From Spirochaetia bacterium (GTDB taxonomy: Bacteria; Spirochaetota; Spirochaetia; UBA9216): a stretch of DNA of 64,000 nucleotides. Both the position numbers and the translations under genes were made by a program. The notes beneath the pieces are model-generated. The model was not told the DNA's origin. It worked only from the letters and a program-made list of their open reading frames with translations, and did no database searches. Of the stretch, positions 10,463-64,000 are shown one piece after another (within the stretch, counting starts at the first letter, position 1; every line of letters starts with the position of its first letter). Location: contig OZ223264.1 in assembly GCA_965140585.1 (NCBI GenBank), positions 236,829 to 300,828 of the forward strand. The letters run 5' to 3'.

Positions 10463-10465
10463 ATT

Positions 10466-35013: not shown

Positions 35014-35068
35014 TATTTACCGATAATACCCGAATTGGAATTGCGGGTAAAGGAGGGAATCCTTCGTT

Positions 35069-36295: not shown

Positions 36296-36408
36296 TTAAG
36301 TATATATTAATTGTTCAGACTTTCAACGAAATCAAAATTTTCCATGACTAAAAATCCCTTAGGAGTTATAATCAATAAAGAAATATCAGTATTGCAGCAG
36401 GTAAAGTA

Positions 36409-44038: not shown

Positions 44039-44140
44039 AAATACAAAAAACAGCAATATTACACTATCGATCCTGAAACTGCATGACTATAATTTAAATA
44101 GATAAAAAAAGGCTTTGAAAAAAAGGTAGATATAGATATA

Positions 44141-46673: not shown

Positions 46674-46688
46674 TTCGATAATTGAATC

Positions 46689-47636: not shown

Positions 47637-47752
47637 AAAATAATATTTCCAGGGGTCATTCTGAAGCATTTATACTGTTTAAGAAATATAAAATTCTTAA
47701 ATCGGTAATCAGGGTTTATACTGCATTAACCGAAAGCTGCAGAGGAGCGGAG

Positions 47753-48514
47753 ATGACCGGAAATATTAAACAGTACAAAAGCAGAATCCCGAGGAAGCAG
47801 AAGGTCAGGCGGACGATTCTCTTGATCTCCTTTATGCTGTTTCCAGTTACAGTGTTTTACTTTTCACCATATCTGATTATCATGGGTGCGGCTGAGGGGG
47901 CAGTTTCTTTCAGTTTTCTTCTGTTCACCGGGATGTTTGTCTTCTCGATGCTTTTGGGCAGGGGCTTCTGCGGATGGGTATGTCCTGCCGGCGGACTTCA
48001 GGATTGTGCTTCCGCCGGGATAGATAAGCCTGCAAGAGGCGGGAAGGCAAATTTAATCAAGTTTATTCTATGGGTTCCATGGCTTGCGGTTATTGTTCTT
48101 TTTTTTGTTAAAGCAGGCGGAATTAAAACACTTGATCCTTTCATAGGAACCGATTTCGGAATGTCTGTTACCAGACCGCAGGCTTACATCATCTACATTC
48201 CTGTTCTGCTTCTCATACTGATTCCGGCACTGACTGCCGGGAAAAGAAGTTTCTGTCATTATATATGCTGGATGGCTCCTTTTATGATTCTGGGAAGGCG
48301 GCTGGGGCGGTTTATACGGATACCCTCTATTGGGCTGAAGTCTGATAAAGACTGCTGTGTCAAATGCGGACTTTGTTCCAGGGCCTGTCCTATGTCACTT
48401 GATGTTCTGGCCATGGTTCAGTCGCAGAATATGTTCAACGATGAATGTATACTCTGTGGTGAATGTACCGATGTCTGCAATAAGGGAGCTCTCCGGTTTA
48501 TTTTTAAACGGTAG
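47753..48514 (+). CDS. Membrane polyferredoxin (NapH/MauN-like, 4Fe-4S)
   Basis: CGWVCPAG, CVKCGLCSRACP, CILCGECTDVC clusters. TM helices. Confidence 0.75.
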   Translation: MTGNIKQYKSRIPRKQKVRRTILLISFMLFPVTVFYFSPYLIIMGAAEGAVSFSFLLFTGMFVFSMLLGRGFCGWVCPAGGLQDCASAGIDKPARGGKANLIKFILWVPWLAVIVLFFVKAGGIKTLDPFIGTDFGMSVTRPQAYIIYIPVLLLILIPALTAGKRSFCHYICWMAPFMILGRRLGRFIRIPSIGLKSDKDCCVKCGLCSRACPMSLDVLAMVQSQNMFNDECILCGECTDVCNKGALRFIFKR

Positions 48515-48569
48515 CCGCTCATATTATTGTATTTAAACATATTCCTTTCATAATTCATTTACATTTCCG

Positions 48570-48809
48570 CTGTAATAATTCTAATTTCAATTTGCAGCAG
48601 GAATAGCAGGCAGAGATTCCATATCAATGATTGTGCTTTTTACCGCAGCCCTGATCGGAGGAGTCTTTTTCTGCGGCCGGCTTTGGTCAGCCGGTGTGAA
48701 AATTGCGGTACATAAGAATGTCCGGAATTTTCAGTGCATCAACTGTTTTAATTGTATAGAAGCATGCCCTGTGAAAGGCGCTTTAACATATGGTCCTGTT
48801 TTAATATGA
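48570..48809 (+). CDS. Ferredoxin-like mini-paralogue / gene fragment of upstream polyferredoxin
   Basis: FFCGRLWSAG resembles FCGWVCPAG. CINCFNCIEACPVKGAL resembles CILCGECTDVCNKGAL. Confidence 0.3.
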
Positions 48810-49018
48810 AGGAGCAAAAAATGAAGAGTAAATTTTACGTTAGGGTCTTGGTTATTGGAATTGTAATGATGAGTCTTGTATCAACAAGTGTGTTTGCGTT
48901 CAGATCTAAAAACAATTACACCATTCCGGACAGGCTTTTTAGCGTAAATTCTCAAAAAAATATACATATATTAGATGATTATATTGTAGATAGCTATCTA
49001 ATATAATATATTATTATC

Positions 49019-50242
49019 ATGAAAAATACAAATATGCTTATGTTTATCTACTCGTTAAACCAGGGAATTCACTGGTTTGCAGTCGGTATTGTTGCCCCGG
49101 TAATGATTCTGGTGCTACTGGATATGGGTTTTAATATTGCCCAGGTTGGAACAATAATGGCAGTAATGGGAACAACTGTAATGGTTCTGGAGCTTCCCAC
49201 AGGTGGAGTAGCTGATTCAATCGGCAGAAAACGCATATACATGCTTGCTGTAGCGTTTTACATGACCGGATATGCAGTGATTCTATTTGCGGAAAGTTTT
49301 TATCTGCTTTTTATTTCTGTCTTTCTGCTCGGGGCCGGGCGTGCACTGTCTTCCGGTTCAATGGAAGCCTGGTTTGTTGACGGATGTAAGCAGGAAGGCA
49401 TGGATGATTCCTCACTTCAGAAGGCTCTTGCAAAAGCCGGTGTTGTTATACCTGCCGCACTAGGGGCCGGAACTCTTGCAGGTGGGTTTATTCCGGATCT
49501 TACCGGTTCATACCGCTCGAATATTGCTGTTCTTGTTGGAATTTACGCCTTTCAGATTATACTTACAGGTATTCTGGTGAAGGAAGACCGTTCACAATTT
49601 TCCGGCCGTGTTCTTGACGGTTTCAGAGCTTTTCCGCATGTTATCAGTTCAGCTGTTCAGTATGGTTTTAAAAGCAGGAACACTCTTATTATTTTAATCG
49701 CGACTTTCGGGCTTGGAATAGGCCTTTCCGGACTTGAACAGCTGTGGCAGCCGAAAATAAGGGCCCTGTCGCCTGAGTCTGGAAGTTGGCTGCTTGGTGT
49801 TGTTTCATCAGGATATTTTGTCTGCGCTGCAGGCGGAAGCGCACTTTCGGTATATATTGTAAAACTGTTTAAAAACAGGTACGCTCTTGTCTTGTTTGTT
49901 TCAAGACTGATCATGTCGGTTATGTATATAGCGCTCTCTTTCATGTTCAGTATTGAAGGTTTCATACCCCTGTATTTACTGATCATGCTTGCAAACGGAG
50001 TAAACGGATCTCCGGAAATGACAGTCTTTAACCGGGATATTCCTTCAGAGCGGCGTTCAACCCTGCTGTCCCTCAATTCGCTTTTTCTTCAGTCGGGAGG
50101 AGCGTTGGGTTCACTTTTAGCCGGTTTTCTTGCTTATAGATCCGGAATAGGAACATCCTGGCTGGTTGCCGGTTTTGCGCTTGCAGTTCTTTCATTTATT
50201 TATCTGTTTCTAAAGGAGAAGCCTGTTGAAGATAGAGTATAA
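49019..50242 (+). CDS. MFS transporter
   Basis: 12-TM profile. GxxADxxGRK-like motif (GGVADSIGRKR). Confidence 0.8.
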   Translation: MKNTNMLMFIYSLNQGIHWFAVGIVAPVMILVLLDMGFNIAQVGTIMAVMGTTVMVLELPTGGVADSIGRKRIYMLAVAFYMTGYAVILFAESFYLLFISVFLLGAGRALSSGSMEAWFVDGCKQEGMDDSSLQKALAKAGVVIPAALGAGTLAGGFIPDLTGSYRSNIAVLVGIYAFQIILTGILVKEDRSQFSGRVLDGFRAFPHVISSAVQYGFKSRNTLIILIATFGLGIGLSGLEQLWQPKIRALSPESGSWLLGVVSSGYFVCAAGGSALSVYIVKLFKNRYALVLFVSRLIMSVMYIALSFMFSIEGFIPLYLLIMLANGVNGSPEMTVFNRDIPSERRSTLLSLNSLFLQSGGALGSLLAGFLAYRSGIGTSWLVAGFALAVLSFIYLFLKEKPVEDRV

Positions 50243-51233
50243 CTCCGCTGTAGATCTCTGCTGTGCTATGCTTCAGTTTGTTCACTGGGATGAGATAAAA
50301 GGTTTTGTCCCGGGATATACCTACAGTCCGGAACTTGATGCCTGGTACGAGGAAGTGAATAACGGACTTTCAGGGGTTATTAAGGCGGATCTGAATTATC
50401 TGATTCATGATTTTATCGGTCTGATTTTTCTTCCGGTTGATCTTGCTCTTAACGAGAATATTGTCGAGCCGAAACAATTGATTCAGAGGCTTGAATCTGC
50501 AGATCCTCAGCTGCTCACAGAAAGACTTTTTAATACCTATCTTACCGGAAGGGGCTTTGCTGAGGTAGCGGGAGATGACGATAAAATTCTCAGCGCTATC
50601 CGGCTGGCTGACGGAACAACCAAAAAAAATGAAGCTGAAAAGTTTCTTGATTACACCCGGTCTCCGGACGCCTACCGCAGCCGGCTTGCAGATACTATGC
50701 GGAAATTTCTTGAGGTTGCGTTTGAACCTTTTTCAGAGATTGTTCAGAATGAAATATTCAGACAGATAGAAGCTGATCAAATGCTGCTGGACTCGGATCC
50801 CGACAGATTTTTCAGCGGGTACTGCAGAACTAAGCCGGAAGACGGTCTGGAAACCAGCCGGCTGCTGATAAGTTTTTTTGATGAGCTGGATATAATCTAC
50901 ATTGATAATCCTTCGACTATAATCTACGGCCGGTGCAGGTTTCTGATGGAGGACAGCGGCAGTATTCCACTTGAGCAGATTTACAGCCTGCTTGCAGACG
51001 AAAGCCGTAGAACAATTCTGCAGATGCTCTGCAGGAAGCCCTGGTTTATCAGGGAGATAGCAGATGAACTGAATATAACCTCTGCTACAGTTTCGTACCA
51101 TATGAGTAAATTATCAGCCCTCGATCTTGTTAGTTATGAACAGGGTGAACGTAAGCGTATATACTATCGTGCCAACAGGGCAAATGTAGATAAGATGCTT
51201 GAGATGCTTAAAAAAGATATTACCGGTATATGA
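50226..51233 (+). CDS. Transcriptional regulator with C-terminal ArsR-type HTH
   Basis: ILQMLCRKPWFIREIADELNITSATVSYHMSKL. Confidence 0.6.
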   Translation: MKIEYNSAVDLCCAMLQFVHWDEIKGFVPGYTYSPELDAWYEEVNNGLSGVIKADLNYLIHDFIGLIFLPVDLALNENIVEPKQLIQRLESADPQLLTERLFNTYLTGRGFAEVAGDDDKILSAIRLADGTTKKNEAEKFLDYTRSPDAYRSRLADTMRKFLEVAFEPFSEIVQNEIFRQIEADQMLLDSDPDRFFSGYCRTKPEDGLETSRLLISFFDELDIIYIDNPSTIIYGRCRFLMEDSGSIPLEQIYSLLADESRRTILQMLCRKPWFIREIADELNITSATVSYHMSKLSALDLVSYEQGERKRIYYRANRANVDKMLEMLKKDITGI

Positions 51234-51282
51234 ACAAGCCCATAGTTTAATCTAATCGATAGTATCTGTAGTAAAACTTTCT

Positions 51283-51660
51283 ATGGGTACATCAATTACC
51301 TTGTTATCAGATTTCTCGAACATAGTTTTTATCAGGATTCTGGCCAAGAGTAAAGTCGGCCATCTCTTCTTTCAGAAGCTTTATTTTGTCAGGAATAATA
51401 TCATGGCATATGAGTTTGATTTTTCCTGTTTTTTCGGCCAGTTCAATGGCCTTTCCGACTCCTGCCGCGCCGCCTCCGGTGATTTATATGCCTCTTAAAT
51501 CCGGAAATGCTTTCAGATAACTCATCGTAATCTGAAAGGCTGTTTCAGTTTTATCCTGGTTTTCTTCTACCTGCACTATGTCAAGATCGGCATGAAAATC
51601 TTTGATTTTGTTGATGAGTTTAAAAAGCGGGATATGCATATTTCATGTCTGCGCTGTCAC
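51283..51660 (-). pseudogene. Periplasmic-binding-protein (sugar-binding/LacI-type) gene remnant with in-frame stop
   Basis: Minus-strand reading ...AFPDLRGI*ITGGGAAGVGKAIELAEKTGKIKLICHD.... TAA interrupts a PBP-like domain. Confidence 0.35.
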
Positions 51661-51787
51661 GGAAACCCTGTTCATCCGCAGAAGGTTATGATGGTGTTAT
51701 CAGTATTGAGCATGAAGACTCATATATGTCAGTTGAGGAGGGGCTTAACAAGGCTGTTGCCAACATGAAGCAGACTTCTTATTTTTA
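51645..51787 (+). pseudogene. 3' remnant of a sugar-phosphate isomerase/epimerase (TIM-barrel) gene
   Basis: AEGYDGVISIEHEDSYMSVEEGLNKAV is the typical C-terminus of that family. No upstream body. Confidence 0.35.
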
Positions 51788-52084
51788 AACCTGCATCCAA
51801 GCCGAAGGCTTTTGATATAGATGAGAAGTTTCTGAAGTGAAAAGGAGTTCTTAGACCCAAGAACGTAATTTAAAAAAGTTCCATCTGGCCGGTATCGGAT
51901 TCGCTCCTAATCTTCCGGTTCCGGACGTAGTGTTTTTCATAATTATCTCCGGGTAATGCATCACCCATTACTGTTTTTCCACCCCACTTGTGAGAATTTT
52001 CCCATTCACGTTCAATAACTTTTTCAACATCTGCTGTAGGGGCTGTATGTTGTTCAATCCCATCTGGTAAATCTGTCGAGGTTT

Positions 52085-53155
52085 TTAATTCCCCTGCAGA
52101 CGGACATCATTTCCGGTCTTTGCATGACCGAGCGCTCTTTTTACAACAGAGATGCTGCGGTCGTATATATCCAGCGGAACAGGTGCCGGGTGGCCGTCCC
52201 TTTCCTCCATGTGCAAAGGAGAATCGTGCAGGATCAGAGAACCTTGACGGACCTCCGTAGATGATCTCACTGACCAGTGCCAGAGACTGAACTGTCCGCG
52301 GTCCGACTCCTTCCATCAGAAGCGCTTCGCTGAAGTCAGAGAACTCCCTGGTCCCATGCTGCTGCAAGCGCAGCTCCAAGCCGTTTTGAAATTACATCTT
52401 CGGGCGCGAACTTCATGATGTGAAGGAAGTACTATTCGTCTTGACCGCATAAGAGCATCAAGTTCCCGTTTTTGTCTGTCAGGATGTTCCATCAGGAAGT
52501 CGAGTATCCCCTTCCGGTTCGCATCGGCCCGGGAATCGCTTAGATTCAGAAGTTCCCCCTGGTAGGGTCCGACAAACTGCGGTATGAGGATCACTGAAGA
52601 ACGATTTAATTTCAGATGAATGCCAGTGATATCGTCTGGCTTTTCCTGTGTCTTTGTTCATGCCCTGCTGGACAATGGCCCAGTTGCCGTTTTCAGTGAT
52701 AACAAAATTATGTAGATAGATCTGAAAACCGTCCTGAATAACAGGAATTGTCAATTTTAGCGGTAAGCCTGCTTGTCCGGGTGAGCTGTTCGCCGGACAG
52801 ACCGGTTTTCATTGCATATTCGAGCAGTTCCGCCGGAGTATTTCGCGAATATTTTCCCCGGCCCCCCCAGCACGGCAATACCAAGTTCGGAGCTGCGCGG
52901 ATTCAGTCCACGCTGAATTGCCCTCATCACCGAGGTCGTAATTCCGGTATGAATGCCAGTCCATCCATCCCCAGCACAGCACCGAAGGCCTGGAACCAGA
53001 ACGGATCTGATACCCTTCTTAGGACCCTCGTCGGTTCCTCCGTCTGTTATGATTGCTTCTATTATTGATGTTCCAAGAATCATCATACGGTCTGCAAGCC
53101 ATTTCGGTACCGTTCCGTAATGAAGCGGCAAGTCGGCACTGCCTCCGCGTTTCAT
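52085..53155 (-). pseudogene. Degraded HhH-motif gene split over at least 4 overlapping frames
   Basis: Consecutive minus-strand ORFs 52757-53155, 52479-52754, 52316-52594, 52107-52379, 52085-52270 read as one protein broken by frameshifts. GVGPRTVQSLAL is a helix-hairpin-helix. Confidence 0.4.
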
Positions 53156-54298
53156 TTCCCGTAGGTTCCCTGCTGCCTGCGTTCTCTTTTTGCTATGTAC
53201 ATATTCTGGTCTGCGGCATGAAGGAATTCATGAAAGCTTCGGTGCTTATCGGGAGAATAAATGATGTAGCCGGCACTCAATGAAATATTATATGGTTTTT
53301 TATTTTTAGTGTTAACTTCAGAGATTTTATCGTATATACGCTGGATTACAGCATGAATCTCGGCCGGTGCATTTGTCTCAAGCAGAAGCATAAACTCATC
53401 ACCGCCGAATCTGGCAGCTCTGTCCATCCGTTTTATGGAGCTGTTGAGTAGGGCTGCAGTCTGGACAAGTACGGCATCACCTTCGCTGTGACCGTAATCA
53501 TCATTGATTTCTTTAAAGCCGTCCATATCCATCATTACGAGGGTGAAGGAGCCCTTCCTCTCATAATCCTTAATTCTCAGCTGTATATATTCATCAATCT
53601 GCTGACGGTTAAGAAGTCCGGTAAGGTAATCCCGTATCTCCCTCTGTATTTCAAGGAATATGTAAACAAAGGTCACGGCAAGTGCGACTGAAGGCCATAT
53701 AAGGGTTGTTCCATAAAATCTCATCTGTAAAATAGTGCCGGTCACAGGAAGTATACCGAAAAGGGCAACGCCTCTTATGATATCCTTAGAGACCGACCTT
53801 CTGTTTTGGATTACGAGAAAATATGAATATAACAGTGTCAGCAGCTGAATAAGTGCGACAAGAAAAAACTCCGGGACCTCTCTGATAGTTGTTGTCAGCA
53901 TCAATATAAAATATAAACCCGGAGAATGTGGAATAGATTAAAATTAAGGCGGTAAGTATTAGTGGGTAAAGATAGAAAAGCCTTTTTTTCAGCCTGATCT
54001 TAGAGTGGTTCAGCTGGTAGTCTATATAGCACAGCCATAACACCAGCGGAACCGGGCCGGACAATATCAGAATGAAATTAAACAAAAACAGGAAAGTACG
54101 TGAGCCCTGTCCGGGCAGGCCGTCCATAATCCAGGGTAGTGCATCCAATACCAGCAGTACAATAACGCTCCAGCAGAGAAGCAGGAAAATCCTGGTAGTA
54201 ACTGATTTAAAAGACTGTTTAAGCTGGATAACAGCAATAATCATAAAAAGAATTATGATCATAAAAATATCCAGATCAATTAACTGGTATTTCAGCAT
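53152..54298 (-). CDS. Membrane diguanylate cyclase (GGDEF), apparently split by a frameshift near 53.8-53.9 kb
   Basis: C-terminal ORF has RFGGDEFMLLL. The overlapping upstream ORF 53786-54298 supplies further TM helices in another frame. Confidence 0.65.
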
Positions 54299-54361
54299 TC
54301 ACTGATTTTATAGCCAAAACTAGTATTTTTCAATCAGGGTTTTATCATTGGAAATAATAGT

Positions 54362-56235
54362 TTGACCTCTCAGTATGAGGGGTTTATAATGATGAAAATG
54401 AAAAAAGTACGCAGTATGTTTTCTATCAGATTTATTCTGGTTTTTATGCTAGTACTGCAGTCTGTATTTGTACTGTCGATTGCCGCCTATCTTTTCCGAT
54501 TTAAAATTAATAATTCTGTAGAGAAGATGGCCGGCAATGTTTTCTATACCCTCTCAGAACATATTAATTCACAGCTAACCGCATACTTCATGGTCCCGGA
54601 AGATATAAACAGGCTGAATCTGACACTTTATAAATCCGGTTATCTTAATAAATCTGATTTTTCATTTATGCAGAAGCATTTTTATAAGCAGTCCGAATTC
54701 TTCCCCTTTGTGAGCAGTATCTATTTTGGTTCAGCAGGCGGCGGTTTTGCAGGCGGCGGTGTTGATTTGCACAATGAACTTTACTATATCATGGGCATTG
54801 AAGAAGGCGGTGACGGTAATTTTTATTTAAAAGAAATGGATTATTCAGAGGAGTTCACCGGTCTGGAATGGACTGCTGAGAATATGTAGACGACCCGTCG
54901 GCCATGGTATGCCGGTGCTGTAGAAAACGGCGGAAATTTTTATTCTGAGCCCTATCTGCTACTGAAGATGAATTGGGAATCTCTGTCAGTGTTCCTGTGT
55001 ACGATGAGACCGGTGCTGACCTGGATGGCGTGTTTTGTACGACTCTCTTCCTGTCTGATATATCCGAATTCCTTGAAAAAATTTTTTACGGAAGCGAGCT
55101 TGTTGATGCGGTAAGGACGTTTTCGATTGTTATACCTGTTGACCTTTTTTTTATTCTTCTGACTTTATTCTATATCAGAAAAACACTTCCTCCTATAAAG
55201 AAGATGATCGAAACAATGAATGCTTTTCCCGAAAAATTTGAAACTGGTTTTGAGGGGAGTCTGCTTAGGGAGTTTTGTGATATAGATCTTGCTTTCCGGC
55301 ATATGGCCCAGAGACTACTTAAAACTCTGGGGAGTCTGAGGCATGAGCAGCAGTTTAATGATGTGATGCTCAATTCCTCTCTGGATATATTTGTCGTTTT
55401 TGATTTACTTTCTGGAAAGACGCTGATATGGAACAGGAAATTCTGTGAGCTCTCCGGCTACACTGATGAAGAAATTAAAGAGTATGGTTCTCCGGAAATC
55501 TGGTATGATAAAGAAGACCTGTACAGATGGACAAACATCTCACTTCCCGAGCTGGTGGAAACAGGGACCAATACAACCACCATGCACCTTATTGCAAAGA
55601 GCGGAGAGCGGATTCCGGTAGAGTATAACTGTTCTGTAATCTATTTTAATGATGAAAAAGAAAGGCCCGTACTTGCTGTAGATCGTGATATGCGTGAAAA
55701 ACTGGCTGTCGAACATAAACTTAAAGATTCTGTCAGTGAGAAAGAAGTCCTGCTAAAAGAGCTGTATCACCGTACAAAAAATAATATAAATGTAATTCTT
55801 TCCATGATTAATCTTCAGATGGGGTTTATTCATGATAAGAAATACAATGCTCTTCTGCGGGAGCTTTCGGATAAAATTCAATCCATGTCGCTGGTTCATA
55901 AAAAGCTCTATGAATCTTCGAACTTGTCAAAGATTGATCTCGGTGAGTATCTGGCGGAATTGTCGAGACTTCTGATGTATTCATACCGTAATGATGACAG
56001 ATTCCTGGCGCTCACCGCTGAAGTTGAAAAGATAAATGTATCGATAGATCTGGCTGTTCCCTGTGGACTTCTGCTGAGTGAACTTCTGTCCAATACTTTC
56101 AAGTATGCTTTTGTTGACTCTGCTTCCGGAAATGTTGAGTTTGAAATTGTAGAAACCGGGGGGCTTGGCTGTATAATAAGATTCCCTGTGAGTTCGGGGA
56201 AGGAACGGAATATTGAAAAAAATACTAATCGTTGA
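54362..56235 (+). pseudogene. dCache-PAS-HisKA_2 sensor histidine kinase, disrupted by in-frame TAG and a frameshift
   Basis: TAG at 54887-54889 is followed in the same frame by TTRRPWYAGAVENGGNFYSEPY (Cache RPWY motif). The Cache continuation GISVSVPVYDETGADLDGV is in another frame (ORF 54973). Downstream HRTKNNINVILSMINLQ is a HisKA_2 H-box, and SNTFKYAF is the ATPase N-box. Confidence 0.6.
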
Positions 56236-56415
56236 AGACGAGGCGTTTGCTGTTATGTCGTTAAAATACTACCTTGAGGAGCAGGGCTTCTCATGCACTA
56301 CCGCCGCTACAGAAGCTGAAGCCCTATCCGAATATTCCAGTTTCTGTCCTGACTTTATCCTGATGGATGTTTCGCTTGCTGACGGCAGTGACGGGATTTC
56401 TGCTGCAGAAAAAAT
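56213..56415 (+). pseudogene. Response-regulator receiver (REC) gene truncated after about 68 aa
   Basis: MKKILIVEDEAFAVMSLKYYLEEQGFSCTTAATEAEALSEYSSFCPDFILMDVSLADGSDGISAAEKI, then an abrupt switch to AT-rich DNA. Confidence 0.55.
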
Positions 56416-57419
56416 AATACCTATAGTTTTTTTAGTGATAATTTCACTCTTTACAAATTGCACAACATCTACATTTACTGATAAGTCAAGTGATGAATTT
56501 ATGGCGTATCTGAAAAATGAAATTACAAACAAAAGTGATGGGAATGCCGCATTGATTTTAGTTGAGAACGGTGAGATCTATGATTCATATTATTTTTCAA
56601 AAGGGAGTCCTGTAAATTCAGATACATTATTTCAAATTGCATCTATCAGTAAATTTGTAACAACTGTTGGTATATTAAAACTTGTTGAACAAGGGCATAT
56701 TGATTTAGATTTTCCTGTTTCAGAGTATTTAACAAGTTGGCAGCTTCCCGAAAGCAAATTTGATAATAATAAAGTGACTATAAGACGTCTATTGAGCCAT
56801 ACCGGCGGACTGATTGATGGTTTAGGGTATAAGGGGTTTTATGAAAATGAAGATGTTCAATCATTGGAGGATTCGTTAACTTTCGCAAAGGATAGATTCT
56901 GGACAAAAGGAATCACCAAGGTTGGAATAGAACCCGGAACAAGATTTAAATATTCAGGTGGCGGATTCACGCTCCTGCAGCTCGTAATTGAAGAAGTAAC
57001 AGATAAATCTTTTAACTCCTTCATGAAATCAGAAATTTTTGAACCACTGGATATGGACTCATCAACATTTATAAAAGAAGATGCTGAAAAAATGAATTTG
57101 TCTGAATGTTTTACGAATACAGGTAAAATAGTTGAATATATGAAATTTACATCACTTTCTGCTGCTTCTTTGTTCATTAGCAGTGCTGATATGTATAAAT
57201 TTATAAAACTGTTTTTGAAAAATTGAAATAAAGAACCTTATTACAATAATTTATTCGGAGCTGGATTCCGGAGATAAAATATTCGGACATGACGGCGGGA
57301 ATTATACTGCCGTAAATACTACCGTAAGAATCAACCCTGACAGTAATGACGCTATAATTATTTTTTCAACAGGCGGACACGGCATTGCCAGTGCTCTGGG
57401 AAAAGCTTGGGTTAAATAG
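56416..57419 (+). pseudogene. Class-C beta-lactamase-family serine hydrolase (lipoprotein), frameshifted, on an AT-rich insertion
   Basis: Lipobox IPIVFLVIISLFTNC, SxxK (ASISKF), YSGGGF (YxN-like), LLSHTGGL. The C-terminal GHDGGNYTA...GKAWVK* lies in the +1 frame after the stop at 57224-57226. Fused in-frame to the REC fragment. Confidence 0.55.
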
Positions 57420-57455
57420 CAAAAAGGATAATAGTAGAGCTTCCTGATGTATTTT

Positions 57456-57731
57456 CTATTTCTTACCGGTTAACTTGATAATATGGTATCCGAACTGGGT
57501 TCTTACCACATCGGATATGCTTCCGACACCCATGCGGCTGCATGCTCTTTCAAACTCGGGAACCATCTTTCCGGGGCCGAACCAGCCAAGATCTCCGCCC
57601 TTTGATTTGCTTGGACATGTTGAAAAATCACGTGCTATTGCTTCGAAATTTGCGCCCTGCTTGATCTTTCTCTGAAGTTCCTGGGCCTGACTCTGGCTTT
57701 TAACCAGTATATGACTTGCTTTCCATTCCAT
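57456..57731 (-). CDS. ppiC: Parvulin-type peptidyl-prolyl cis-trans isomerase
   Basis: ASHILVKS...CPSKSKGGDLGWFGPGKMVPEFE...FGYHIIK. Start placed at the internal Met (MEWKASHIL). Confidence 0.8.
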   Translation of the reverse strand: MEWKASHILVKSQSQAQELQRKIKQGANFEAIARDFSTCPSKSKGGDLGWFGPGKMVPEFERACSRMGVGSISDVVRTQFGYHIIKLTGKK

Positions 57732-57777
57732 AATAGTGATATTAAACAAAAAAAATACAATTTTCAAGTTAGGAGAT

Positions 57778-58653
57778 ATGGAAGAAAATTGTTATATTAA
57801 TAGCATGAGCAGGAATTACATCGGAACACATGTCTCTACATACGGAGGGGTTGAAAACGCACCGCTTCATGCCGAACGGATAGGCGCGGAAGGCTTTGCG
57901 TTATTTACCCGCAATCAGCGGAGGTGGGAATCTCCTGCTCTTACAGAGGAAAGTATAAGCCTATTTAAACAGAGAATGAAGGAAGGCGGATTCACTCCGG
58001 ATGTTGTTCTGCCTCACAATTCCTACCTGATAAACCTGGCATCTCCTGATCCCGAAAAGTCAAAAAAGTCTTTTGATTCATATATTGATGAGCTCAACCG
58101 CGTTAATCTGCTTGGCCTTAAATATCTCAACATTCATCCGGGCAGTACTACGGGCCTTATCAGCTTTGAGCAGGGTATTGAAAACATCAGTACAGCGGTA
58201 AACCGGGCCAATAAAATGGTTCCCGATGTAATTACCGTACTTGAGACGACATCAGGACAGAAGAATAAGATCGGCGGACGCTTTGAAGAGATTGCTGCAA
58301 TAATGGACAGGATTAAACAGCCGGATCGCGTTGCTATCTGCATAGATACCTGTCATGTCTACGGCGCCGGCTATGACGTTTCAACTGAAGAGGGCTGTAA
58401 TGATATGCTTGAGCAGTTTGACAGGCTGCTTGGACTCTCCAACCTGAAGGGAATGCATCTAAATGATTCTAAAAGAGGTCTTGGTGAGCATATCGACCGG
58501 CATGAAAACATAGGGAAGGGCTGCATAGGTGAAACCGGATTCAGGTATCTTCTGAACGACAAGCGTTTAAAAGGCCTTCCGATGATTCTTGAAACGCCGA
58601 ATCCGAAGGAGTGGGAGGCTGAAATAGCACTTCTGCATTCATTTCTTGAATGA
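57778..58653 (+). CDS. nfo: Endonuclease IV (AP endonuclease, xylose-isomerase-like TIM barrel)
   Basis: IGTHVSTYGG, LPHNSYLINLASPD, LNIHPGS, VLETTSGQ, ICIDTCHVYGAGYD. Alternative start 57805. Confidence 0.85.
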   Translation: MEENCYINSMSRNYIGTHVSTYGGVENAPLHAERIGAEGFALFTRNQRRWESPALTEESISLFKQRMKEGGFTPDVVLPHNSYLINLASPDPEKSKKSFDSYIDELNRVNLLGLKYLNIHPGSTTGLISFEQGIENISTAVNRANKMVPDVITVLETTSGQKNKIGGRFEEIAAIMDRIKQPDRVAICIDTCHVYGAGYDVSTEEGCNDMLEQFDRLLGLSNLKGMHLNDSKRGLGEHIDRHENIGKGCIGETGFRYLLNDKRLKGLPMILETPNPKEWEAEIALLHSFLE

Positions 58654-58710
58654 CTCGTCCATAAGTGGTAAAATTAGTACAAACTGGGTGGGGAGAATAT
58701 AAAAATCTCA

Positions 58711-60507
58711 ATGGCAAAACAAAAGAAATCCGCATACGATGAAAGCAAGATAAAAACGCTAAGCTCTCTTGAGCACATCCGTCTGCGTACCGGTATGTAT
58801 ATCGGACGACTAGGAGACGGTTCAAACCTTGATGACGGTATATACGTCCTTTTGAAGGAAGTTGTTGACAACAGTATTGATGAGTTCATCATGGGCAACG
58901 GTAAGAAAATAGTAATCAAGGTTGAGGACAACAAGGTTGTAGTTCGTGACTACGGCCGGGGTATTCCGCTTGGAAAGGTTATTGATTGTGTTTCAATTAT
59001 AAATACAGGTGCAAAATACAACGACGACGTATTTCAGTTTTCGGTCGGTCTTAACGGTGTCGGTACCAAGGCGGTAAACGCGCTTTCCATAAACTTCAGA
59101 GTCGTTTCATTCCGTGACGGCAAGTTCTTCGAGGCAATCTTTGAAAGAGGTATCCTGCAGAAGAAACGCGAAGGAAAGAAGGCCGGCGAGCCCGACGGAA
59201 CCTACGTTGAGTTTATTCCGGACAAGGAAATCTTCGGAGAGTACACATTCAACCATGAATACATTGATCAGCGTATCTGGAATTACGCATACCTGAACAG
59301 CGGGTTGACGCTTTATTTTAACAAGAAAAAATATGAATCTCAGAACGGGCTTCTTGATCTTCTCTCGGCTGAAGTAGGAAATACCACCATTTATGATATC
59401 GGCTACTACAAGGGCGAACAGCTTGAGTTCTCCTTTGCTCACACAAATACCTACGGAGAAAACTACTTCTCCTTTGTAAACGGTCAGTACACCAGCGACG
59501 GCGGTACGCATCAGAGCGCTTTCCGCGAGGGCTTTCTAAAGGGGGTCAATGAGTTCTACAAGAAGAACTACAACGGTGTGGATGCCCGTGAAGGGCTTGC
59601 CGGTGCTGTTTCAATAAAGCTGAAAAATCCGGTCTTTGAAAGCCAGACGAAGAATAAGCTTGGTAATACTGAAATCAGGGCCTGGGTTGTAAACGAAGTC
59701 CGGTCCGGTGTTGTTGATTATCTGCACAAAAATAAGGAAGCCGCCGACAAGCTTGAGAACAAGATTGTCAGCAATGAAAAGCTGCGGAAGGAACTTAATG
59801 AAGTAAAGAAGGAAGCCCGTGAGGCAGCCAAAAAAGTTGCGCTTAAGATTCCCAACCTGAAAGACTGTAAATTTCATCTGGGTGACAAGAAGGGTGAAGA
59901 ATCCATGATCTTCATCACCGAGGGTCAGTCTGCATCTGGCTCAATAGTCTCTGCCCGGGATGTCTACAGGCAGGCAGTTTTTTCACTTCGCGGTAAGCCG
60001 TTCAATGTATTCGGAAAGAAGCGGGCGGCAATCTATAAGAATGAAGAGCTTTACAATCTGATGATGGCCCTTGGAGTTGAGAATGAAATTGACAACCTCC
60101 GCTACGGCAAACTGATAATCGCAACTGATGCAGATAATGATGGTTTTCATATTCGGAATCTTCTGCTTACATTCTTTCTCACCTTCTTTGAGGAACTTGC
60201 AACCGCAGGACGTATATATATCCTTGAGACACCGCTTTTCAGAGTAAGAAACAAGAAAGAGACCCACTACTGCTATAATATTGCAGAACGTGACGAGGCT
60301 ATGGCCAAACTCGCGGGCCCCGAGGTTACCAGATTTAAGGGACTTGGTGAGATTTCTCCGAAAGAATTCGGACAGTTCATCGGTGAGGATATGCGGCTGG
60401 TTAAAGTCGATGTGAAAACGATGAAAGATGTTCCGAATACACTTGAGTTTTTTATGGGTAAAAATACACCCCAGAGACGAAGCTTTATTATGGAGAACCT
60501 TATCTGA
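58711..60507 (+). CDS. parE: DNA topoisomerase IV subunit B (short spirochaete-type ParE)
   Basis: GHKL ATPase (EVVDNSIDE, SVGLNGVGTKAVNALS). Toprim (EGQSASGS, IATDADNDGFHI). 598 aa, like Borrelia ParE. Confidence 0.8.
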   Translation: MAKQKKSAYDESKIKTLSSLEHIRLRTGMYIGRLGDGSNLDDGIYVLLKEVVDNSIDEFIMGNGKKIVIKVEDNKVVVRDYGRGIPLGKVIDCVSIINTGAKYNDDVFQFSVGLNGVGTKAVNALSINFRVVSFRDGKFFEAIFERGILQKKREGKKAGEPDGTYVEFIPDKEIFGEYTFNHEYIDQRIWNYAYLNSGLTLYFNKKKYESQNGLLDLLSAEVGNTTIYDIGYYKGEQLEFSFAHTNTYGENYFSFVNGQYTSDGGTHQSAFREGFLKGVNEFYKKNYNGVDAREGLAGAVSIKLKNPVFESQTKNKLGNTEIRAWVVNEVRSGVVDYLHKNKEAADKLENKIVSNEKLRKELNEVKKEAREAAKKVALKIPNLKDCKFHLGDKKGEESMIFITEGQSASGSIVSARDVYRQAVFSLRGKPFNVFGKKRAAIYKNEELYNLMMALGVENEIDNLRYGKLIIATDADNDGFHIRNLLLTFFLTFFEELATAGRIYILETPLFRVRNKKETHYCYNIAERDEAMAKLAGPEVTRFKGLGEISPKEFGQFIGEDMRLVKVDVKTMKDVPNTLEFFMGKNTPQRRSFIMENLI

Positions 60508-62429
60508 TGTCATACGTAAAAAAACTTTTTAACGATAATTTTCTGGAATATGCATCTTACGTAATCAAGGACAGGGCCATTCCCGATCTCCAGGACGGAC
60601 TAAAACCTGTACAGAGGCGAATAATTCATTCGCTGTTTGAAATGGATGACGGTAAATTTCATAAGGTCGCAAATGTTGTAGGCCACTGTATGAAATACCA
60701 TCCCCATGGTGATGCTTCCATTTATTCAGCTCTGGTCGTTCTTGCCAACAAGGAACTGTTTGTAGACAAGCAGGGAAACTTCGGCAATATCCTCACCGGC
60801 GACCCGGCATCTGCTGCCAGGTATATTGAGTGCCGTGCTCTCCCCCTTGCAAAGAGGGTTCTCTATAATCCCGAAATTACAGAGTATACCGATTCCTATG
60901 ATGGAAGAAACAAGGAGCCGATCGCTTTCAGGGCAAAGATTCCGGTAATTTTGATTCACGGTGCTGAAGGAATTGCGGTAGGTATGTCCACTAAGATTCT
61001 GCCGCATAACTATGAAGAAGTTCTTGGCGCTGTAAAAACATGTCTTTTGGGAAAGGCCTTCAAGCTTTATCCTGATTTTCCCACCGGCGGCTATGTTGAT
61101 GTCTCCAACTATGAAGACGGAAACGGAAAGGTTCTTGTCCGCGCCAAGCTTGATACTTCTGATGAGAAGCGCATAGTTATCCGTGAGATTCCATTCGGAA
61201 CAACAACCGAGTCGCTTATGAACTCGATTGAGACCGCCGCCAGACAGAACAAGATTAAGGTTTCAAGTATTACCGACTTCACAACTGAGAAGGCCGAGAT
61301 AGAAATCAAACTTGCCCGCGGAGTTCATACCGAAGAGGTCGTTGATTCACTTTATGCCTTTACCGACTGCGAAGTTTCAATATCTGTAAATCTCCTTGTT
61401 ATCCGCAAGGGGCTTCCTGTAATAATGACTGTCACCGAGATTATCAAGTATTATGCCGCCCAGATTGTTGAAGTCCTCCGTGACGAGCTGAAGCTTGAGG
61501 AGCGCGGTCTTCTTGATAAGATACATGCAAGAACCCTTGAGAGAATCTTTATCGAGGAAAGAATCTACAAGCGGATAGAAACGATGAAAACCAGGGACGG
61601 TGTAATTAAAACCGTTATTACAGGTTTTGAACCGTATATGGATGAAATAAAGCGTGAAGTTACCGAGGATGACGTTGAAAGACTTCTCAAGATTCCTATC
61701 AGAAGGATTTCTCTATACGACATCAATAAGGCCAGAGATGAAATGGCCCAGCTTCAGGCAAGGCTTAAGGAAGTGCGACATCACCTGCGTCACATTACTG
61801 AATACGCTGTGTCTTTTGTCGATGCGCTGCTTCAGGGAGTTGCCGAAGAGCAGAAACGCAAAACTGAGGTTATTTCCTTTGACAAGGTCGATGTCCGGGA
61901 GGTTGCGCAGCGTAACCTGAGTCTGGCCTATGATGACAACACGGGTTACCTCGGCTACGATGTTAAATCGGGCAAAACTCTTTTTAATGTATCAAACTAT
62001 GACCGTATACTGGTTATCAGGGCAAGCGGGGTGTATTCGGTAATTGATGTGCCTGACAAGCTCTTTGTAGACAAAGGTATGCTCTTCTGCGGACTTGCCG
62101 ACAAGGATGAGATGGCTGAAACAATCTTCAGCATCCTTTATAAAAACAATAAAACAGGCTATGCCCACCTCAAGCGCTGTAAGATTGAGAAGTTCATACT
62201 TGATAAATCATACGAACTGATTCCCGAGGGAAACAAGATAATCAAACTGACAACCAAAGAGGATATTGAGGCCGCTGTTACTTATAAAGAAAAGCCGAGA
62301 TTGAAGGTTCTGGATGAAAGTTTCGACGTTTCGGGCTATCTTGTTAAGGGTGTTAAGGCTGCCGGAGTCAGACTTTCCGCGAAAGAAATAAAGAGCGCCA
62401 AGTTTGTGAAAAAAAAGTCAAAAAAATAG
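60507..62429 (+). CDS. parC: DNA topoisomerase IV subunit A (short ParC lacking canonical CTD)
   Basis: RAIPDLQDGLKPVQRR, YHPHGD. Active-site AARYIECRAL. 640 aa, like Borrelia ParC. ATGA-type coupling to parE. Confidence 0.8.
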   Translation: MSYVKKLFNDNFLEYASYVIKDRAIPDLQDGLKPVQRRIIHSLFEMDDGKFHKVANVVGHCMKYHPHGDASIYSALVVLANKELFVDKQGNFGNILTGDPASAARYIECRALPLAKRVLYNPEITEYTDSYDGRNKEPIAFRAKIPVILIHGAEGIAVGMSTKILPHNYEEVLGAVKTCLLGKAFKLYPDFPTGGYVDVSNYEDGNGKVLVRAKLDTSDEKRIVIREIPFGTTTESLMNSIETAARQNKIKVSSITDFTTEKAEIEIKLARGVHTEEVVDSLYAFTDCEVSISVNLLVIRKGLPVIMTVTEIIKYYAAQIVEVLRDELKLEERGLLDKIHARTLERIFIEERIYKRIETMKTRDGVIKTVITGFEPYMDEIKREVTEDDVERLLKIPIRRISLYDINKARDEMAQLQARLKEVRHHLRHITEYAVSFVDALLQGVAEEQKRKTEVISFDKVDVREVAQRNLSLAYDDNTGYLGYDVKSGKTLFNVSNYDRILVIRASGVYSVIDVPDKLFVDKGMLFCGLADKDEMAETIFSILYKNNKTGYAHLKRCKIEKFILDKSYELIPEGNKIIKLTTKEDIEAAVTYKEKPRLKVLDESFDVSGYLVKGVKAAGVRLSAKEIKSAKFVKKKSKK

Positions 62430-62497
62430 TGAATCCGGTAACAGCACAGCCTTTTCATGGTGTTCAATAGATAGACAATGGAAAGGGACGGATTTCA

Positions 62498-62974
62498 TTG
62501 AAGATTGACGTAGAACAATTTTACAGAAAATACGGTCCCATGGTGTTCAGGCGCTGCAAATCGCTTCTAAATGATGAAGATCGCGCTCATGACGCCATGC
62601 AGGAAGTATTTGTGAAGGTACTCAGAAAAGCAGACTCACTTAACGACAGAGCTCCATCAAGCCTTCTGTATACTATAGCAACAAATGTCTGTCTTAATGA
62701 ACTCCGTAAAGTCAACCGTCTTGTAGACAGCGGTAATGAGATAATTGAAACCGTTGCAGGGACTGAAAGTCATGAGAGAATAGTACTGACAAACCATTTT
62801 CTTGAACAGCTTTTCAGTCTTGAAAAAGAATCTACAAGAACAATGGCTGTGCTGCATTATGTTGAGGGTTATACCCTTGAAGAAACAGCACGTGTTATGA
62901 ACATGTCCGTTTCCGGTGTCCGAAAAAGGCTAAGAGGCCTCCGTGAGAGGGGTCTTGCGCTTAAGGAGGAATAA
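62498..62974 (+). CDS. ECF-family RNA polymerase sigma factor
   Basis: Region 2 (DAMQEVFVKVLRK). Region 4 HTH (LEETARVMNMSVSGVRKRL). Confidence 0.85.
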   Translation: MKIDVEQFYRKYGPMVFRRCKSLLNDEDRAHDAMQEVFVKVLRKADSLNDRAPSSLLYTIATNVCLNELRKVNRLVDSGNEIIETVAGTESHERIVLTNHFLEQLFSLEKESTRTMAVLHYVEGYTLEETARVMNMSVSGVRKRLRGLRERGLALKEE

Positions 62975-62977
62975 TCT

Positions 62978-63769
62978 ATGAAACCTGGAAAGCTGTTTCT
63001 TGAGCAATACAAACTGGGCGAACTGACAGATGAAGAAAAAAAGCAGTTCGAAGACAGTTTTGAAGATCCGAATGAACTTGAAAGACTCCTGAGAGAACTG
63101 GATGACTCAGATAAAGATTTCTTTAAAAAATTTCCCGTAGATGAGACAGTCGATTCAATAAAGGAAAGAAGTGAACAAAGCAAAGGCTCAAAGATTCTGA
63201 AGTTTCCGGTTTTCCGGATTTCAGCCCTTGCAGCCGCTGCAGCGGTTGTTATATTCGGCTTCAGCTTCTTTTACTCTCCTGTGAGCACAGGAGGCACAGG
63301 CTCGACTCCGGATGTAAATGCAACTGAAAGAATTAAGGGCATGAAGCCCTCTCTTAAAATATACCGGAGCCTCAGCGGTTCTGCTGAAATCCTTGAAAAC
63401 AGGGATACCGTTGCCGAAAAGGATCTTCTGCAGATTGAATACATTGCCGGCGGCTACAGGTACGGCATGATTTTTTCAATTGACGGACGGGGTACTGTTA
63501 CCATGCACTATCCCTCATACAGCGGAATAAAACCAGAGCTCGATAACAACGGGGCTGTTCTTCTACCGTATGCCTATGAGCTTGATGATGCTCCGGAATT
63601 TGAAAGATTCTTCTTTATAGCCGGAGGAGACTGGTTCAATGCCGATGAAGTTCTTGACGCAGCTTATGAGCTGGCTTCATCAAACAGTTCGGCAAGACGT
63701 AGTTTTCTTGATATCCCTGAAGAATACTACCAGACAACAATCTTATTAAAGAAGGGGGCTGAAAGATGA
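62978..63769 (+). CDS. Putative anti-sigma factor (single TM)
   Basis: Immediately downstream of the ECF sigma gene. TM helix ISALAAAAAVVIFGFSFF. Confidence 0.5.
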   Translation: MKPGKLFLEQYKLGELTDEEKKQFEDSFEDPNELERLLRELDDSDKDFFKKFPVDETVDSIKERSEQSKGSKILKFPVFRISALAAAAAVVIFGFSFFYSPVSTGGTGSTPDVNATERIKGMKPSLKIYRSLSGSAEILENRDTVAEKDLLQIEYIAGGYRYGMIFSIDGRGTVTMHYPSYSGIKPELDNNGAVLLPYAYELDDAPEFERFFFIAGGDWFNADEVLDAAYELASSNSSARRSFLDIPEEYYQTTILLKKGAER

Positions 63770-64000
63770 AAAGCCTTGTAAAAGATGTCCTGAAGAAGAT
63801 GCTTCTTCAGATAAGTATAATCGGATTTATATGCCTGCTTTTTCTTGTATCAGCGGCTGGCGCTTCTGCACAAACCTCAGTTATGAGAAGATACGCAGTT
63901 TATGTAGGCTCCAATTACGGCGGTCACGAAAGAGTAACCCTTTCATACGCTGTAACTGATGCAAGGGCTCTTTCTGATGTTATGCAGCGGCTCGGCGGTG
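63769..64000 (+). CDS. Secreted caspase-like (C14) domain protein, 3' truncated by window edge
   Basis: Signal peptide, then YAVYVGSNYGG...LSYAVTDARALSDVM resembling caspase-domain starts. Confidence 0.35.

What the first reader, a model, noticed from the sequence alone, without database searches (positions are those of the whole stretch)
56213..57419. Response-regulator gene truncated by an AT-rich insertion that carries a frameshifted class-C beta-lactamase-family lipoprotein gene
The first approximately 68 codons are a textbook REC domain in roughly 50% GC DNA. At about 56413 the sequence turns sharply AT-rich and the same ORF continues as a lipoprotein signal (IPIVFLVIISLFTNC) followed by a serine-hydrolase fold (ASISKF SxxK, YSGGGF, LLSHTGGL). 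The hydrolase itself is broken: its conserved C-terminus (GHDGGNYTA ... GKAWVK) is in the +1 frame after the stop at 57224-57226. This looks like a horizontally acquired fragment inserted into the REC gene, producing an in-frame REC-hydrolase chimera that is probably non-functional.
Basis: partly seen in the sequence, partly recalled or inferred. Interest (0 to 1): 0.5.

Follow-up and report, generated by a model that had tools for sequence, protein, structure and literature searches.

The report
Dead response-regulator/hydrolase gene chimera
A 1 kb piece of foreign, AT-rich DNA carrying a broken serine-hydrolase gene has replaced the back end of a signalling gene and its neighbour in a spirochaete genome, leaving a dead fused reading frame, which is ordinary gene decay.

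Summary
ORF 56213-57226 (337 aa) is codons 1-68 of a CheY-like receiver (REC) gene fused in frame to a PF00144 (class C / S12) serine-hydrolase lipoprotein gene.

A sister Spirochaetia genome, about 94% identical in the flank, has the intact locus: HK (736 aa), REC (119 aa), 4HBT thioesterase (139 aa), then a convergent parvulin PPIase. In the window, 656 bp of that locus are replaced by 1035 bp of foreign DNA (56417-57451). The lost part is REC codons 69-119, the whole thioesterase gene and the terminator.

- **Composition:** the foreign segment is 33.7% GC against 43.9% for the host, and GC3 is 25% against 40-51%.
- **Hydrolase lesions:** it has no start codon, an in-frame TGA, a 77-nt frame-shifting gap that removes the conserved YGLG block, and a TAG where its closest homologue has Trp.
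- **Partner kinase:** it is also dead, with a nonsense codon, a 4-bp deletion, a 206-bp deletion and a 150-bp deletion.
- **Donor:** none was identified. The best homologue is 53-56% identical and lies beside IS21 and toxin-antitoxin genes. No repeats, transposase or attC site mark the junctions.

Interest is low.

The parts
54362..56235 (+). Histidine-kinase pseudogene (dCache_1 / PAS / HisKA_2 / HATPase_c type). It is the cognate partner of the truncated REC and is now split into ORFs 54362-54889 and 54973-56235.
   Evidence: The sister gene is 736 aa and intact. The window copy has four lesions:
- CAG->TAG at 54887-54889.
- A 4-bp deletion at 54960.
- A 206-bp deletion at 55075.
- A 150-bp in-frame deletion at 56133-56138 that removes the G1/G2 ATP-lid boxes.

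Pfam no longer detects HATPase_c. dN/dS against the sister is 0.11, compared with 0.00-0.08 for parE, parC, nfo and the PPIase. The promoter-like site TTGACC-17-TATAAT at 54362-54390 is conserved in the sister.
56213..56416 (+). 5' remnant (codons 1-68) of a stand-alone CheY-like response-regulator (REC) gene. Its TTG start overlaps the kinase 3' end, as in the sister.
   Evidence: PF00072 model positions 1-64 of 111 are matched. The remnant is 85.9% nt and 91% aa identical to sister REC codons 1-68, with dN/dS 0.03. It keeps E8-D9-E10 and the phospho-acceptor D52 (LMDVSL). It lacks beta4 to alpha5, including the conserved Thr (FMTGY) and Lys (LDKP) seen in the sister protein.
56417..57451 (.). 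Foreign AT-rich segment (1035 bp). It replaces 656 bp of the ancestral locus: REC codons 69-119, the 4HBT thioesterase gene and the terminator hairpin.
   Evidence: There is no homology to the sister locus between L001 8086 and 8741.
- GC is 33.7% and GC3 is 24.9%. The tetranucleotide log-likelihood ratio lies outside the host range.
- It has no copy elsewhere in the window.
- No terminal inverted repeats or target-site duplication were found.
- The sister's terminator-like hairpin (L001 8687-8704) has no counterpart in the window.
56417..56461 (+). Lipoprotein-type signal sequence of the hydrolase (IPIVFLVIISLFTN-C83). It has no start codon of its own and is now internal to the chimeric ORF.
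   Evidence: It aligns with the signal peptide of the closest homologue P0002 (MKRNQYPIKRLLILTIVIFLSSSC). That it is a lipoprotein signal is inferred from the sequence. No signal-peptide predictor was available.
56462..57226 (+). Main body of the PF00144 / S12 serine-hydrolase pseudogene, in frame with REC and ending at the in-frame nonsense codon TGA 57224-57226.
   Evidence: PF00144 E = 2.7e-40. It is 56% identical to P0002 residues 12-288, and that alignment reads through the TGA, where P0002 has TCA. The invariant S-x-x-K (56642-56653) and Y-S-G (56951-56959) motifs are present.
57227..57419 (+). 3' part of the hydrolase pseudogene.
- About 10 more codons read in the old frame (NKEPYYNNL).
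- The deletion junction lies at about 57245-57257.
- The +1 frame then gives TIIYSELDSGDKIFGHDGG...GKAWVK, ending at TAG 57417-57419.
   Evidence: tblastn with P0002 matches its residues 311-370 in the +1 frame at 65% identity. Only 64 nt lie between the FLK and GHDG landmarks, where P0002 and P0005 have 141 nt. The lost stretch includes the nearly invariant YGLG block. The H-D-G motif is at 57288-57296. The TAG sits where P0002 has TGG.
57456..57731 (-). Intact parvulin-type PPIase gene that bounds the replaced segment. Homology to the sister resumes 1-4 nt beyond its stop codon.
   Evidence: It is 100% aa identical to the sister's 91-aa PPIase, with dN/dS 0.02. Pfam Rotamase E = 8e-25.

Best explanation
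This is a dead locus, not a working system.

The ancestor is represented by the sister Spirochaetia genome CAXXYH010000004.1. It had an operon of histidine kinase, a stand-alone CheY-like REC and a 4HBT thioesterase, ending at a terminator shared with a convergent parvulin PPIase gene.

In the window's lineage, low-GC foreign DNA carrying a lipoprotein-type PF00144 (MEROPS S12, 'CubicO peptidase / class C beta-lactamase family') serine-hydrolase gene became joined to this locus. The joining was illegitimate, meaning not site-specific.

The net result:
- REC codons 69-119, the whole thioesterase gene and the terminator (656 bp) are gone.
- 1035 bp of foreign DNA sit in their place.
- The left junction lies in an A-run (GCAGAAAAAATA|ATACC) and happens to keep the frame. 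The REC TTG start therefore now opens a 337-codon chimeric ORF.

The product cannot work as a response regulator because it lacks beta4 to alpha5, including the conserved Thr and Lys. It cannot work as a hydrolase for three reasons:
- Its signal peptide is buried 68 residues inside the protein.
- A nonsense codon comes before the H-x-G motif.
- A 77-nt deletion removes the YGLG block.

The orphaned kinase has since collected a nonsense codon and three deletions.

Shown: the breakpoints, the lost genes, the foreign composition and every lesion.

Inferred:
- The order of events, either a one-step replacement or an insertion later trimmed by deletions up to the selected PPIase stop codon.
- Decay of the kinase as a consequence of losing REC.
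- Absence of expression and function.
For: - Domain content of the ORF.
- The identical 337-aa protein is on record from a 946,203-bp contig in NCBI/ENA.
- The sister locus has intact HK 736 aa, REC 119 aa, 4HBT 139 aa, PPIase, nfo, parE and parC.
- blastn blocks and breakpoints and base-level junctions.
- tblastn finds no 4HBT in the window.
- Composition of the insert: GC 33.7% (z = -3.7), below all 859 host windows, and GC3 24.9%.
- Hydrolase lesions measured against P0002/L082 and nine other homologues.
- Kinase lesions.
- The flanking DNA is clean. There is one 3-bp indel in 6.5 kb downstream and no frameshifting indel in 18 kb at 18348-36312. Generic assembly error therefore does not explain the structure.
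- The closest homologue (53-56% identity) lies next to IstB_IS21 and a RelE/HTH toxin-antitoxin pair, on 33% GC DNA. This family therefore occurs in mobile, low-GC contexts.
Against: - No donor was identified. Nothing closer than 53-56% aa identity turned up in 5.8 billion proteins, JGI metagenomes, plasmids or phages.
- Only one comparison genome shares the locus, so the order of events cannot be resolved.
- The sequence is a metagenome-assembled contig and no reads were available.
- A nearby gene (DUF763) shows an odd cluster of single-base insertions, which could mean local consensus problems.
- dN/dS of the REC remnant (0.03) and of the kinase (0.11) is still low. The inactivation must therefore be recent relative to the split from the sister, whose dS is 0.7-1.1.
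Confidence: 0.85

Rival explanations
1. Assembly artefact. The 1 kb AT-rich piece comes from another organism in the metagenome and was spliced into the spirochaete contig by a chimeric read or a wrong graph path.
For: The source is a MAG contig. The composition jump is sharp. The DUF763 gene 3-4 kb upstream has 10 single-base insertions plus a 4-bp duplication despite dN/dS 0.04, which may reflect a local consensus problem.
Against: - Two artefactual joins 1035 bp apart would be needed, with the contig returning to the same locus just past the PPIase stop codon.
- A piece from a living contaminant should carry an intact gene. This one lacks a start codon, has a nonsense codon and has a 77-nt deletion.
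- The adjacent kinase carries large deletions at imperfect (5-6 nt) microhomologies. That fits a genuinely dead operon.
- About 25 kb of other compared sequence shows no frameshifts.
Confidence: 0.06
2. A clean mobile-element event. The hydrolase arrived as an integron gene cassette, or inside an IS or transposon, and inserted by site-specific recombination or transposition.
For: The insert is almost exactly gene-sized. The closest homologue P0002 sits between an IS21 helper gene, a GNAT gene and a RelE/HTH pair. The intergenic repeats there end in GTCGTTAAAT, which resembles an integron core site GTTRRRY.
Against: - No terminal inverted repeats or target-site duplication flank 56417-57451.
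- No transposase or integrase ORF lies between 51.6 and 64 kb, where the sister locus annotates every gene.
- Only about 32 nt follow the hydrolase stop codon, and they do not fold into an attC-like hairpin (z = +0.3 and -0.1).
- The candidate repeats in L082 did not give a canonical attC hairpin either.
- The gene's own 5' end is missing and 656 bp of host DNA were lost. Neither is expected from a clean event.
Confidence: 0.06
3. A genuine two-domain protein. A response regulator with a serine-hydrolase output domain is still functional, or was recently.
For: The reading frame is continuous for 337 codons. The protein is called as a single gene with PF00072 + PF00144 in public annotation.
Against: - REC stops at model position 64 of 111.
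- The sister has a complete stand-alone REC that is colinear only up to codon 68.
- A signal peptide and lipobox lie between the two parts.
- The two halves differ by about 20 points in GC3.
- None of the other 119 best hydrolase homologues carries a REC domain.
- The hydrolase is truncated before its H-x-G motif.
Confidence: 0.02

Closest known systems
Stand-alone CheY-like response regulator: the sister-genome orthologue, 119 aa (L001 7882-8241, PF00072)
   Same: Codons 1-68 are orthologous (91% aa). They use the same TTG start overlapping the kinase stop, and keep the acidic pocket E-D-E and the phospho-acceptor Asp52.
   Different: The window copy lacks residues 69-119 (beta4 to alpha5, with the conserved Thr and Lys) and runs into foreign sequence. 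It is a remnant, not a member with a new output domain.
PF00144 / MEROPS S12 serine hydrolases: 'CubicO group peptidase, beta-lactamase class C family'. Solved relatives include Pab87 (2qmi), Streptomyces R61 DD-peptidase (1cef) and alkaline D-peptidase (4y7p).
   Same: It has the same fold family by sequence (Pfam E = 2.7e-40). Its close homologue P0002 hits 2qmi at E = 3e-20. The S-x-x-K, Y-S-G and H-D-G motifs align with the invariant columns of ten family members.
   Different: - It is not a bona fide class C beta-lactamase. Homologues are annotated only as serine hydrolases or peptidases.
- The window copy is a pseudogene.
- With P0002 it forms a lipoprotein-type, about 376-aa subgroup. 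That subgroup lacks the N- and C-terminal membrane helices of the usual ~420-aa Bacteroidota and Kordiimonas forms.
P0002 (376 aa, Logan contig SRR32473237_2478 = L082), the closest sequence relative
   Same: 53-56% aa and 67% nt identity. GC is similarly low (31-33%). It has the same lipoprotein-type N-terminus and a short C-terminus.
   Different: It is too distant to be the donor. It is intact, and it lies next to IS21 IstB, a GNAT gene and a RelE/HTH pair.
Pseudogene formation by illegitimate capture of foreign DNA with an accompanying deletion, followed by decay of orphaned partner genes. This is general knowledge of bacterial genome decay, not tested against a specific paper here.
   Same: The segment is compositionally foreign, the junctions carry no repeats, neighbouring genes were lost as collateral, and both the captured gene and the orphaned kinase carry several independent lesions.
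   Different: Nothing is notably different. This is an ordinary example.

Membership tests
Response regulator receiver domain (REC, PF00072) | N-terminal acidic pocket and phospho-acceptor Asp at the end of beta3 | tested here: met
   E8-D9-E10 and D52 (LMDVSL) are present. Pfam matches model positions 1-64 at 36.7 bits, above the cut-off of 30.2. They align with the sister REC.
Response regulator receiver domain (REC, PF00072) | Complete (beta-alpha)5 fold of about 115 residues, with the conserved Thr/Ser after beta4 and Lys after beta5 | tested here: not met
   Homology to the sister REC ends at codon 68. Model positions 65-111 are absent, and T80 and K102 of the sister protein have no counterpart.
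PF00144 / S12 serine hydrolase (class C beta-lactamase family) | Catalytic S-x-x-K, Y-x-N/G and H/K-x-G motifs | tested here: met
   S144-I-S-K147, Y247-S-G and H-D-G (57288-57296) align with the invariant columns of ten homologues. The third motif lies beyond a stop codon and in another frame.
PF00144 / S12 serine hydrolase (class C beta-lactamase family) | One uninterrupted reading frame covering the whole domain, with its own start codon | tested here: not met
   There is no start codon. TGA lies at 57224. A net 77-nt gap with a frame shift removes the YGLG block. Pfam coverage stops at model position 232 of 329.
Bacterial lipoprotein (signal peptidase II substrate) | N-terminal signal peptide with a positively charged n-region, a hydrophobic core and a lipobox Cys | tested here: inconclusive
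   The hydrophobic core and Cys83 (LFTN-C) align with the signal peptide of P0002. The sequence is internal (residues 69-83), the lipobox is non-canonical, and no predictor was available.
Response regulator with an enzymatic output domain (genuine fusion) | Full REC followed by a linker and output domain, with the architecture conserved in orthologues | tested here: not met
   The sister orthologue is a stand-alone 119-aa REC followed by a separate 4HBT gene. Among the 120 best hydrolase homologues, only the window's own protein has PF00072.
IS / transposon / integron-cassette insertion | Terminal inverted repeats with a target-site duplication, or an attC site, and a transposase or integrase nearby | tested here: not met
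   No significant inverted or direct repeats bracket 56417-57451. The 3' flank does not fold like an attC site. No such gene lies between 51.6 and 64 kb.

The most novel reading that the evidence does not exclude
The locus may capture, almost in the act, a domino loss of a whole signalling block (GGDEF, kinase, REC, thioesterase) set off by capture of foreign DNA. In the same block, the neighbouring DUF763 gene has 10 single-base insertions, one 4-bp duplication and no deletions, with dN/dS 0.04. If that pattern is real it would point to an unusual insertion-only mutational burst rather than to consensus error.
Probability: 0.08. Interest if true: 0.4.

Novelty: already known. Interest (0 to 1): 0.12.

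Why it matters
The practical value is for annotation. The 337-aa 'REC + beta-lactamase' protein is deposited in public databases as if it were a real two-domain protein, and it should be flagged as a pseudogene chimera. It should not be counted as a new response-regulator architecture or as a resistance determinant.

Biologically, it is a tidy and well-bounded example of how captured foreign DNA destroys an operon and how the orphaned kinase then decays. It answers no open question.

Tried and rejected
- **Exact-protein contig look-ups.** Look-ups for the chimeric ORF, for parE and for P0001 returned nothing. The sister locus was reached only through a 90%-cluster member of ParE.
- **Other spirochaete genomes.** Of 80 genome loci around parE, the 13 that were tabulated were all Spirochaetia loci. 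Only the sister genome keeps HK-REC-4HBT next to parE. There is therefore no outgroup for ordering the events.
- **Closer donor.** JGI metagenomes gave at most 46-50% identity. Plasmids gave at most 43%. Phages gave no DNA match.
- **Mobile-element signatures.** The repeat search around the insert gave only chance-level short repeats.
- **Integron-cassette idea.** It was prompted by the GTTAAAT-ending repeats in L082. Single-strand folds of the putative attC regions and of the window's 3' flank did not support it.
- **Second copy in the window.** A search for a second copy of the insert, or a link to the 34% GC island at 1-18 kb, found no sequence similarity. The tetranucleotide profile is only 'island-like' in being AT-rich.
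- **Generic sequencing error.** It is rejected as the cause of the frame breaks, because about 25 kb of other aligned sequence has no frameshifting indels.
- **tRNA integration site.** There are no tRNA genes in the window.
Full report
**1. What the sequence shows**

ORF 56213..57226 (TTG start, 337 aa) is present. Pfam finds two domains in it:
- Response_reg (PF00072): residues 4-68 match model positions 1-64 of 111 (E = 5e-9, above the curated cut-off).
- Beta-lactamase (PF00144): residues 110-331 match model positions 16-232 of 329 (E = 2.7e-40).

Between the two lies IPIVFLVIISLFTN-C83, which looks like a lipoprotein signal. The conserved C-terminus of the hydrolase (GHDGG...GKAWVK) reads in the +1 frame and ends at TAG 57417-57419. 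The identical 337-aa protein is already on record in NCBI/ENA, from a 946,203-bp contig. It is the only one of the 120 best hydrolase hits that also carries PF00072.

**2. Composition**

- The segment 56417-57451 is 33.7% GC. The host part of the window (18001-64000) averages 43.9 +/- 2.7%.
- That gives z = -3.7, and the segment is lower than every one of 859 host windows of equal length.
- GC3 falls from 44% in the REC part, and 40-51% in neighbouring genes, to 24.9% in the hydrolase.
- The maximum-likelihood change point is 56408.

**3. The uninterrupted orthologue**

A 90%-cluster member of the window's ParE led to a sister genome, the Spirochaetia MAG CAXXYH010000004.1 (a 2.62-Mb contig). 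Its locus L001 reads as follows:
- DUF763 and GGDEF genes
- a histidine kinase of 736 aa (dCache_1, HisKA_2, HATPase_c)
- a REC of 119 aa
- a 4HBT thioesterase of 139 aa
- a parvulin PPIase on the opposite strand
- nfo, parE and parC

blastn gives these blocks:

| L001 | Window | Result |
|---|---|---|
| 7802-8085 | 56133-56416 | 85.9% identity |
| 8086-8741 (656 bp) | none | no counterpart |
| 8742-15293 | 57452-64000 | 94.2% identity |

At base level:
- Left junction: homology ends after GCAGAAAAAATA, which is REC codon 68 (window 56416).
- Right junction: homology resumes at TATTTCTTACCGG, 1-4 nt beyond the PPIase stop codon (57456-57458, minus strand).

The 656 bp missing from the window comprise REC codons 69-119, the entire thioesterase gene and a terminator-like hairpin (L001 8687-8704). 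That hairpin has no counterpart in the window. tblastn finds no 4HBT anywhere in the window. The event is therefore a replacement of 656 bp by 1035 bp, not a simple insertion.

**4. State of the hydrolase gene**

The closest homologue is P0002 (376 aa, 53-56% identical). It sits on a 4.7-kb, 33% GC contig beside IstB_IS21, a GNAT gene and a RelE/HTH pair. Measured against it and nine other homologues, the window copy shows five differences:
- (a) It has no start codon. It begins inside the signal peptide.
- (b) It has TGA at 57224-57226 where P0002 has TCA.
- (c) After about 10 more in-frame codons, only 64 nt remain where homologues have 141 nt between the FLK and GHDG landmarks. This net 77-nt loss shifts the frame and removes the nearly invariant YGLG block.
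- (d) It has TAG at 57417 where P0002 has TGG.
- (e) The catalytic S-x-x-K (56642-56653), Y-S-G (56951-56959) and H-D-G (57288-57296) motifs are all still recognisable.

The family is the S12 / 'CubicO peptidase' branch of PF00144. P0002 hits Pab87 (2qmi) at E = 3e-20 and R61 DD-peptidase (1cef) at E = 1e-11. It is not a clinical class C beta-lactamase.

**5. The surrounding block is also decayed**

- **Kinase.** It carries CAG->TAG at 54887, a 4-bp deletion at 54960, a 206-bp deletion at 55075, and a 150-bp in-frame deletion at 56133-56138. The last one removes the G1/G2 boxes. The two large deletions lie at imperfect (5-6 nt) microhomologies. Pfam no longer sees HATPase_c.
- **GGDEF gene.** It has one extra A in an A-run (53863).
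- **DUF763 gene.** It has 10 single-base insertions plus a 4-bp tandem duplication.
- **Sister AP_endonuc_2 gene.** It survives only as two short remnants, about 236 bp in all.

Nei-Gojobori dN/dS against the sister is 0.11 for the kinase, 0.03 for the REC remnant and 0.04 for DUF763 and GGDEF. Synonymous divergence (dS) is 0.4-1.1. Inactivation is therefore recent compared with the split of the two genomes.

**6. Is it an assembly artefact?**

Elsewhere the window aligns cleanly to the sister. There is one 3-bp indel in 6.5 kb downstream and no frameshifting indel across 18 kb at 18348-36312. A chimeric join would need two breakpoints 1 kb apart that return to the same locus. It would also be expected to import an intact gene, whereas this one has four independent defects. 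I give the artefact reading about 6%. The DUF763 insertion cluster remains unexplained and is the one reason to want the reads.

**7. How the DNA got there**

- No terminal repeats, target duplication, transposase or integrase mark the segment.
- The roughly 32 nt after the hydrolase stop codon do not fold like an attC site. The suggestive GTTAAAT-ending repeats around P0002 did not give canonical attC hairpins either.
- No closer donor exists in the protein database, JGI metagenomes, plasmids or phages.

The best-supported mechanism is therefore illegitimate recombination or deletion. It was either one step or an insertion followed by trimming. The right-hand limit was set by selection on the PPIase gene, which is 100% aa identical to the sister's with dN/dS 0.02. 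This step is inferred, not shown.

**8. Function**

The chimeric product cannot act as a receiver because it has no beta4 to alpha5 and lacks the conserved Thr and Lys. It cannot act as a hydrolase either:
- its signal peptide is internal;
- the chain stops before the H-x-G motif;
- the YGLG block is deleted.

It may still be transcribed from the conserved kinase promoter-like site (54362-54390). No function is expected.

**9. Verdict**

The feature is an ordinary pseudogene chimera. Its main practical consequence is that the deposited 'REC + beta-lactamase' protein should not be read as a new domain architecture or as a resistance gene.

Noticed in passing
window 51873-53155 (minus strand): The DUF763 gene carries 10 single-base insertions plus one 4-bp tandem duplication (TCCA) and no deletions, relative to the intact sister gene. 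With those removed it is 96.9% aa identical, with dN/dS 0.04. About half of the insertions are outside homopolymers. This is either a local consensus-error cluster or a very recent insertion-only burst.
   Followed up: partly
window 1-18347: An 18-kb island of 34% GC lies in a 44% GC host. It contains:
- a 1184-aa protein with a weak Shufflon_N hit
- an XhlA-like protein
- a Vsr endonuclease
- a Dcm-type C5 methylase
- an MvaI/BcnI restriction endonuclease
- an Rhs/YD-type C-terminal toxin tip (17038-17799)

Two island proteins that were checked (745-4299 and 7160-8407) have no member at 90% identity or more from the sister genome.
   Followed up: partly
window 18348-18770: Synteny with the sister stops 18 nt inside ssb. 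The window's ssb has lost its first 6 codons, start codon and RBS to the AT-rich island. This is a second case of foreign AT-rich DNA abutting a truncated host gene.
   Followed up: partly
window 51607-51840: Only two short remnants (79 bp and about 157 bp) survive of the sister's 331-aa AP_endonuc_2 / sugar-phosphate-isomerase-like gene. Synteny with sister locus L001 ends at 51607, and the sister DNA corresponding to window 44031-51607 was not retrieved.
   Followed up: no
window 53155-54298 (minus strand): The GGDEF diguanylate-cyclase gene is split by one extra A in an A-run at 53863. It is otherwise 93-95% aa identical to the sister gene. This could be a real frameshift or a homopolymer error.
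   Followed up: no
L082 2011-2043 and 3365-3397: The closest hydrolase homologue lies between IstB_IS21, a GNAT gene and a RelE/HTH toxin-antitoxin pair. The intergenic repeats there end in GTCGTTAAAT, which resembles an integron core site. Folding did not confirm attC sites.
   Followed up: partly
window 18348-44031 and 51683-64000 compared with sister contig coordinates 39-110 kb: Synonymous divergence from the sister varies widely along the locus. dS is 0.07-0.09 for the ECF sigma factor and its neighbour, 0.23-0.26 for the PPIase, nfo and parE, 0.5 for parC, and 0.6-1.1 for GGDEF, the kinase and REC. This suggests a recombination mosaic.
   Followed up: no
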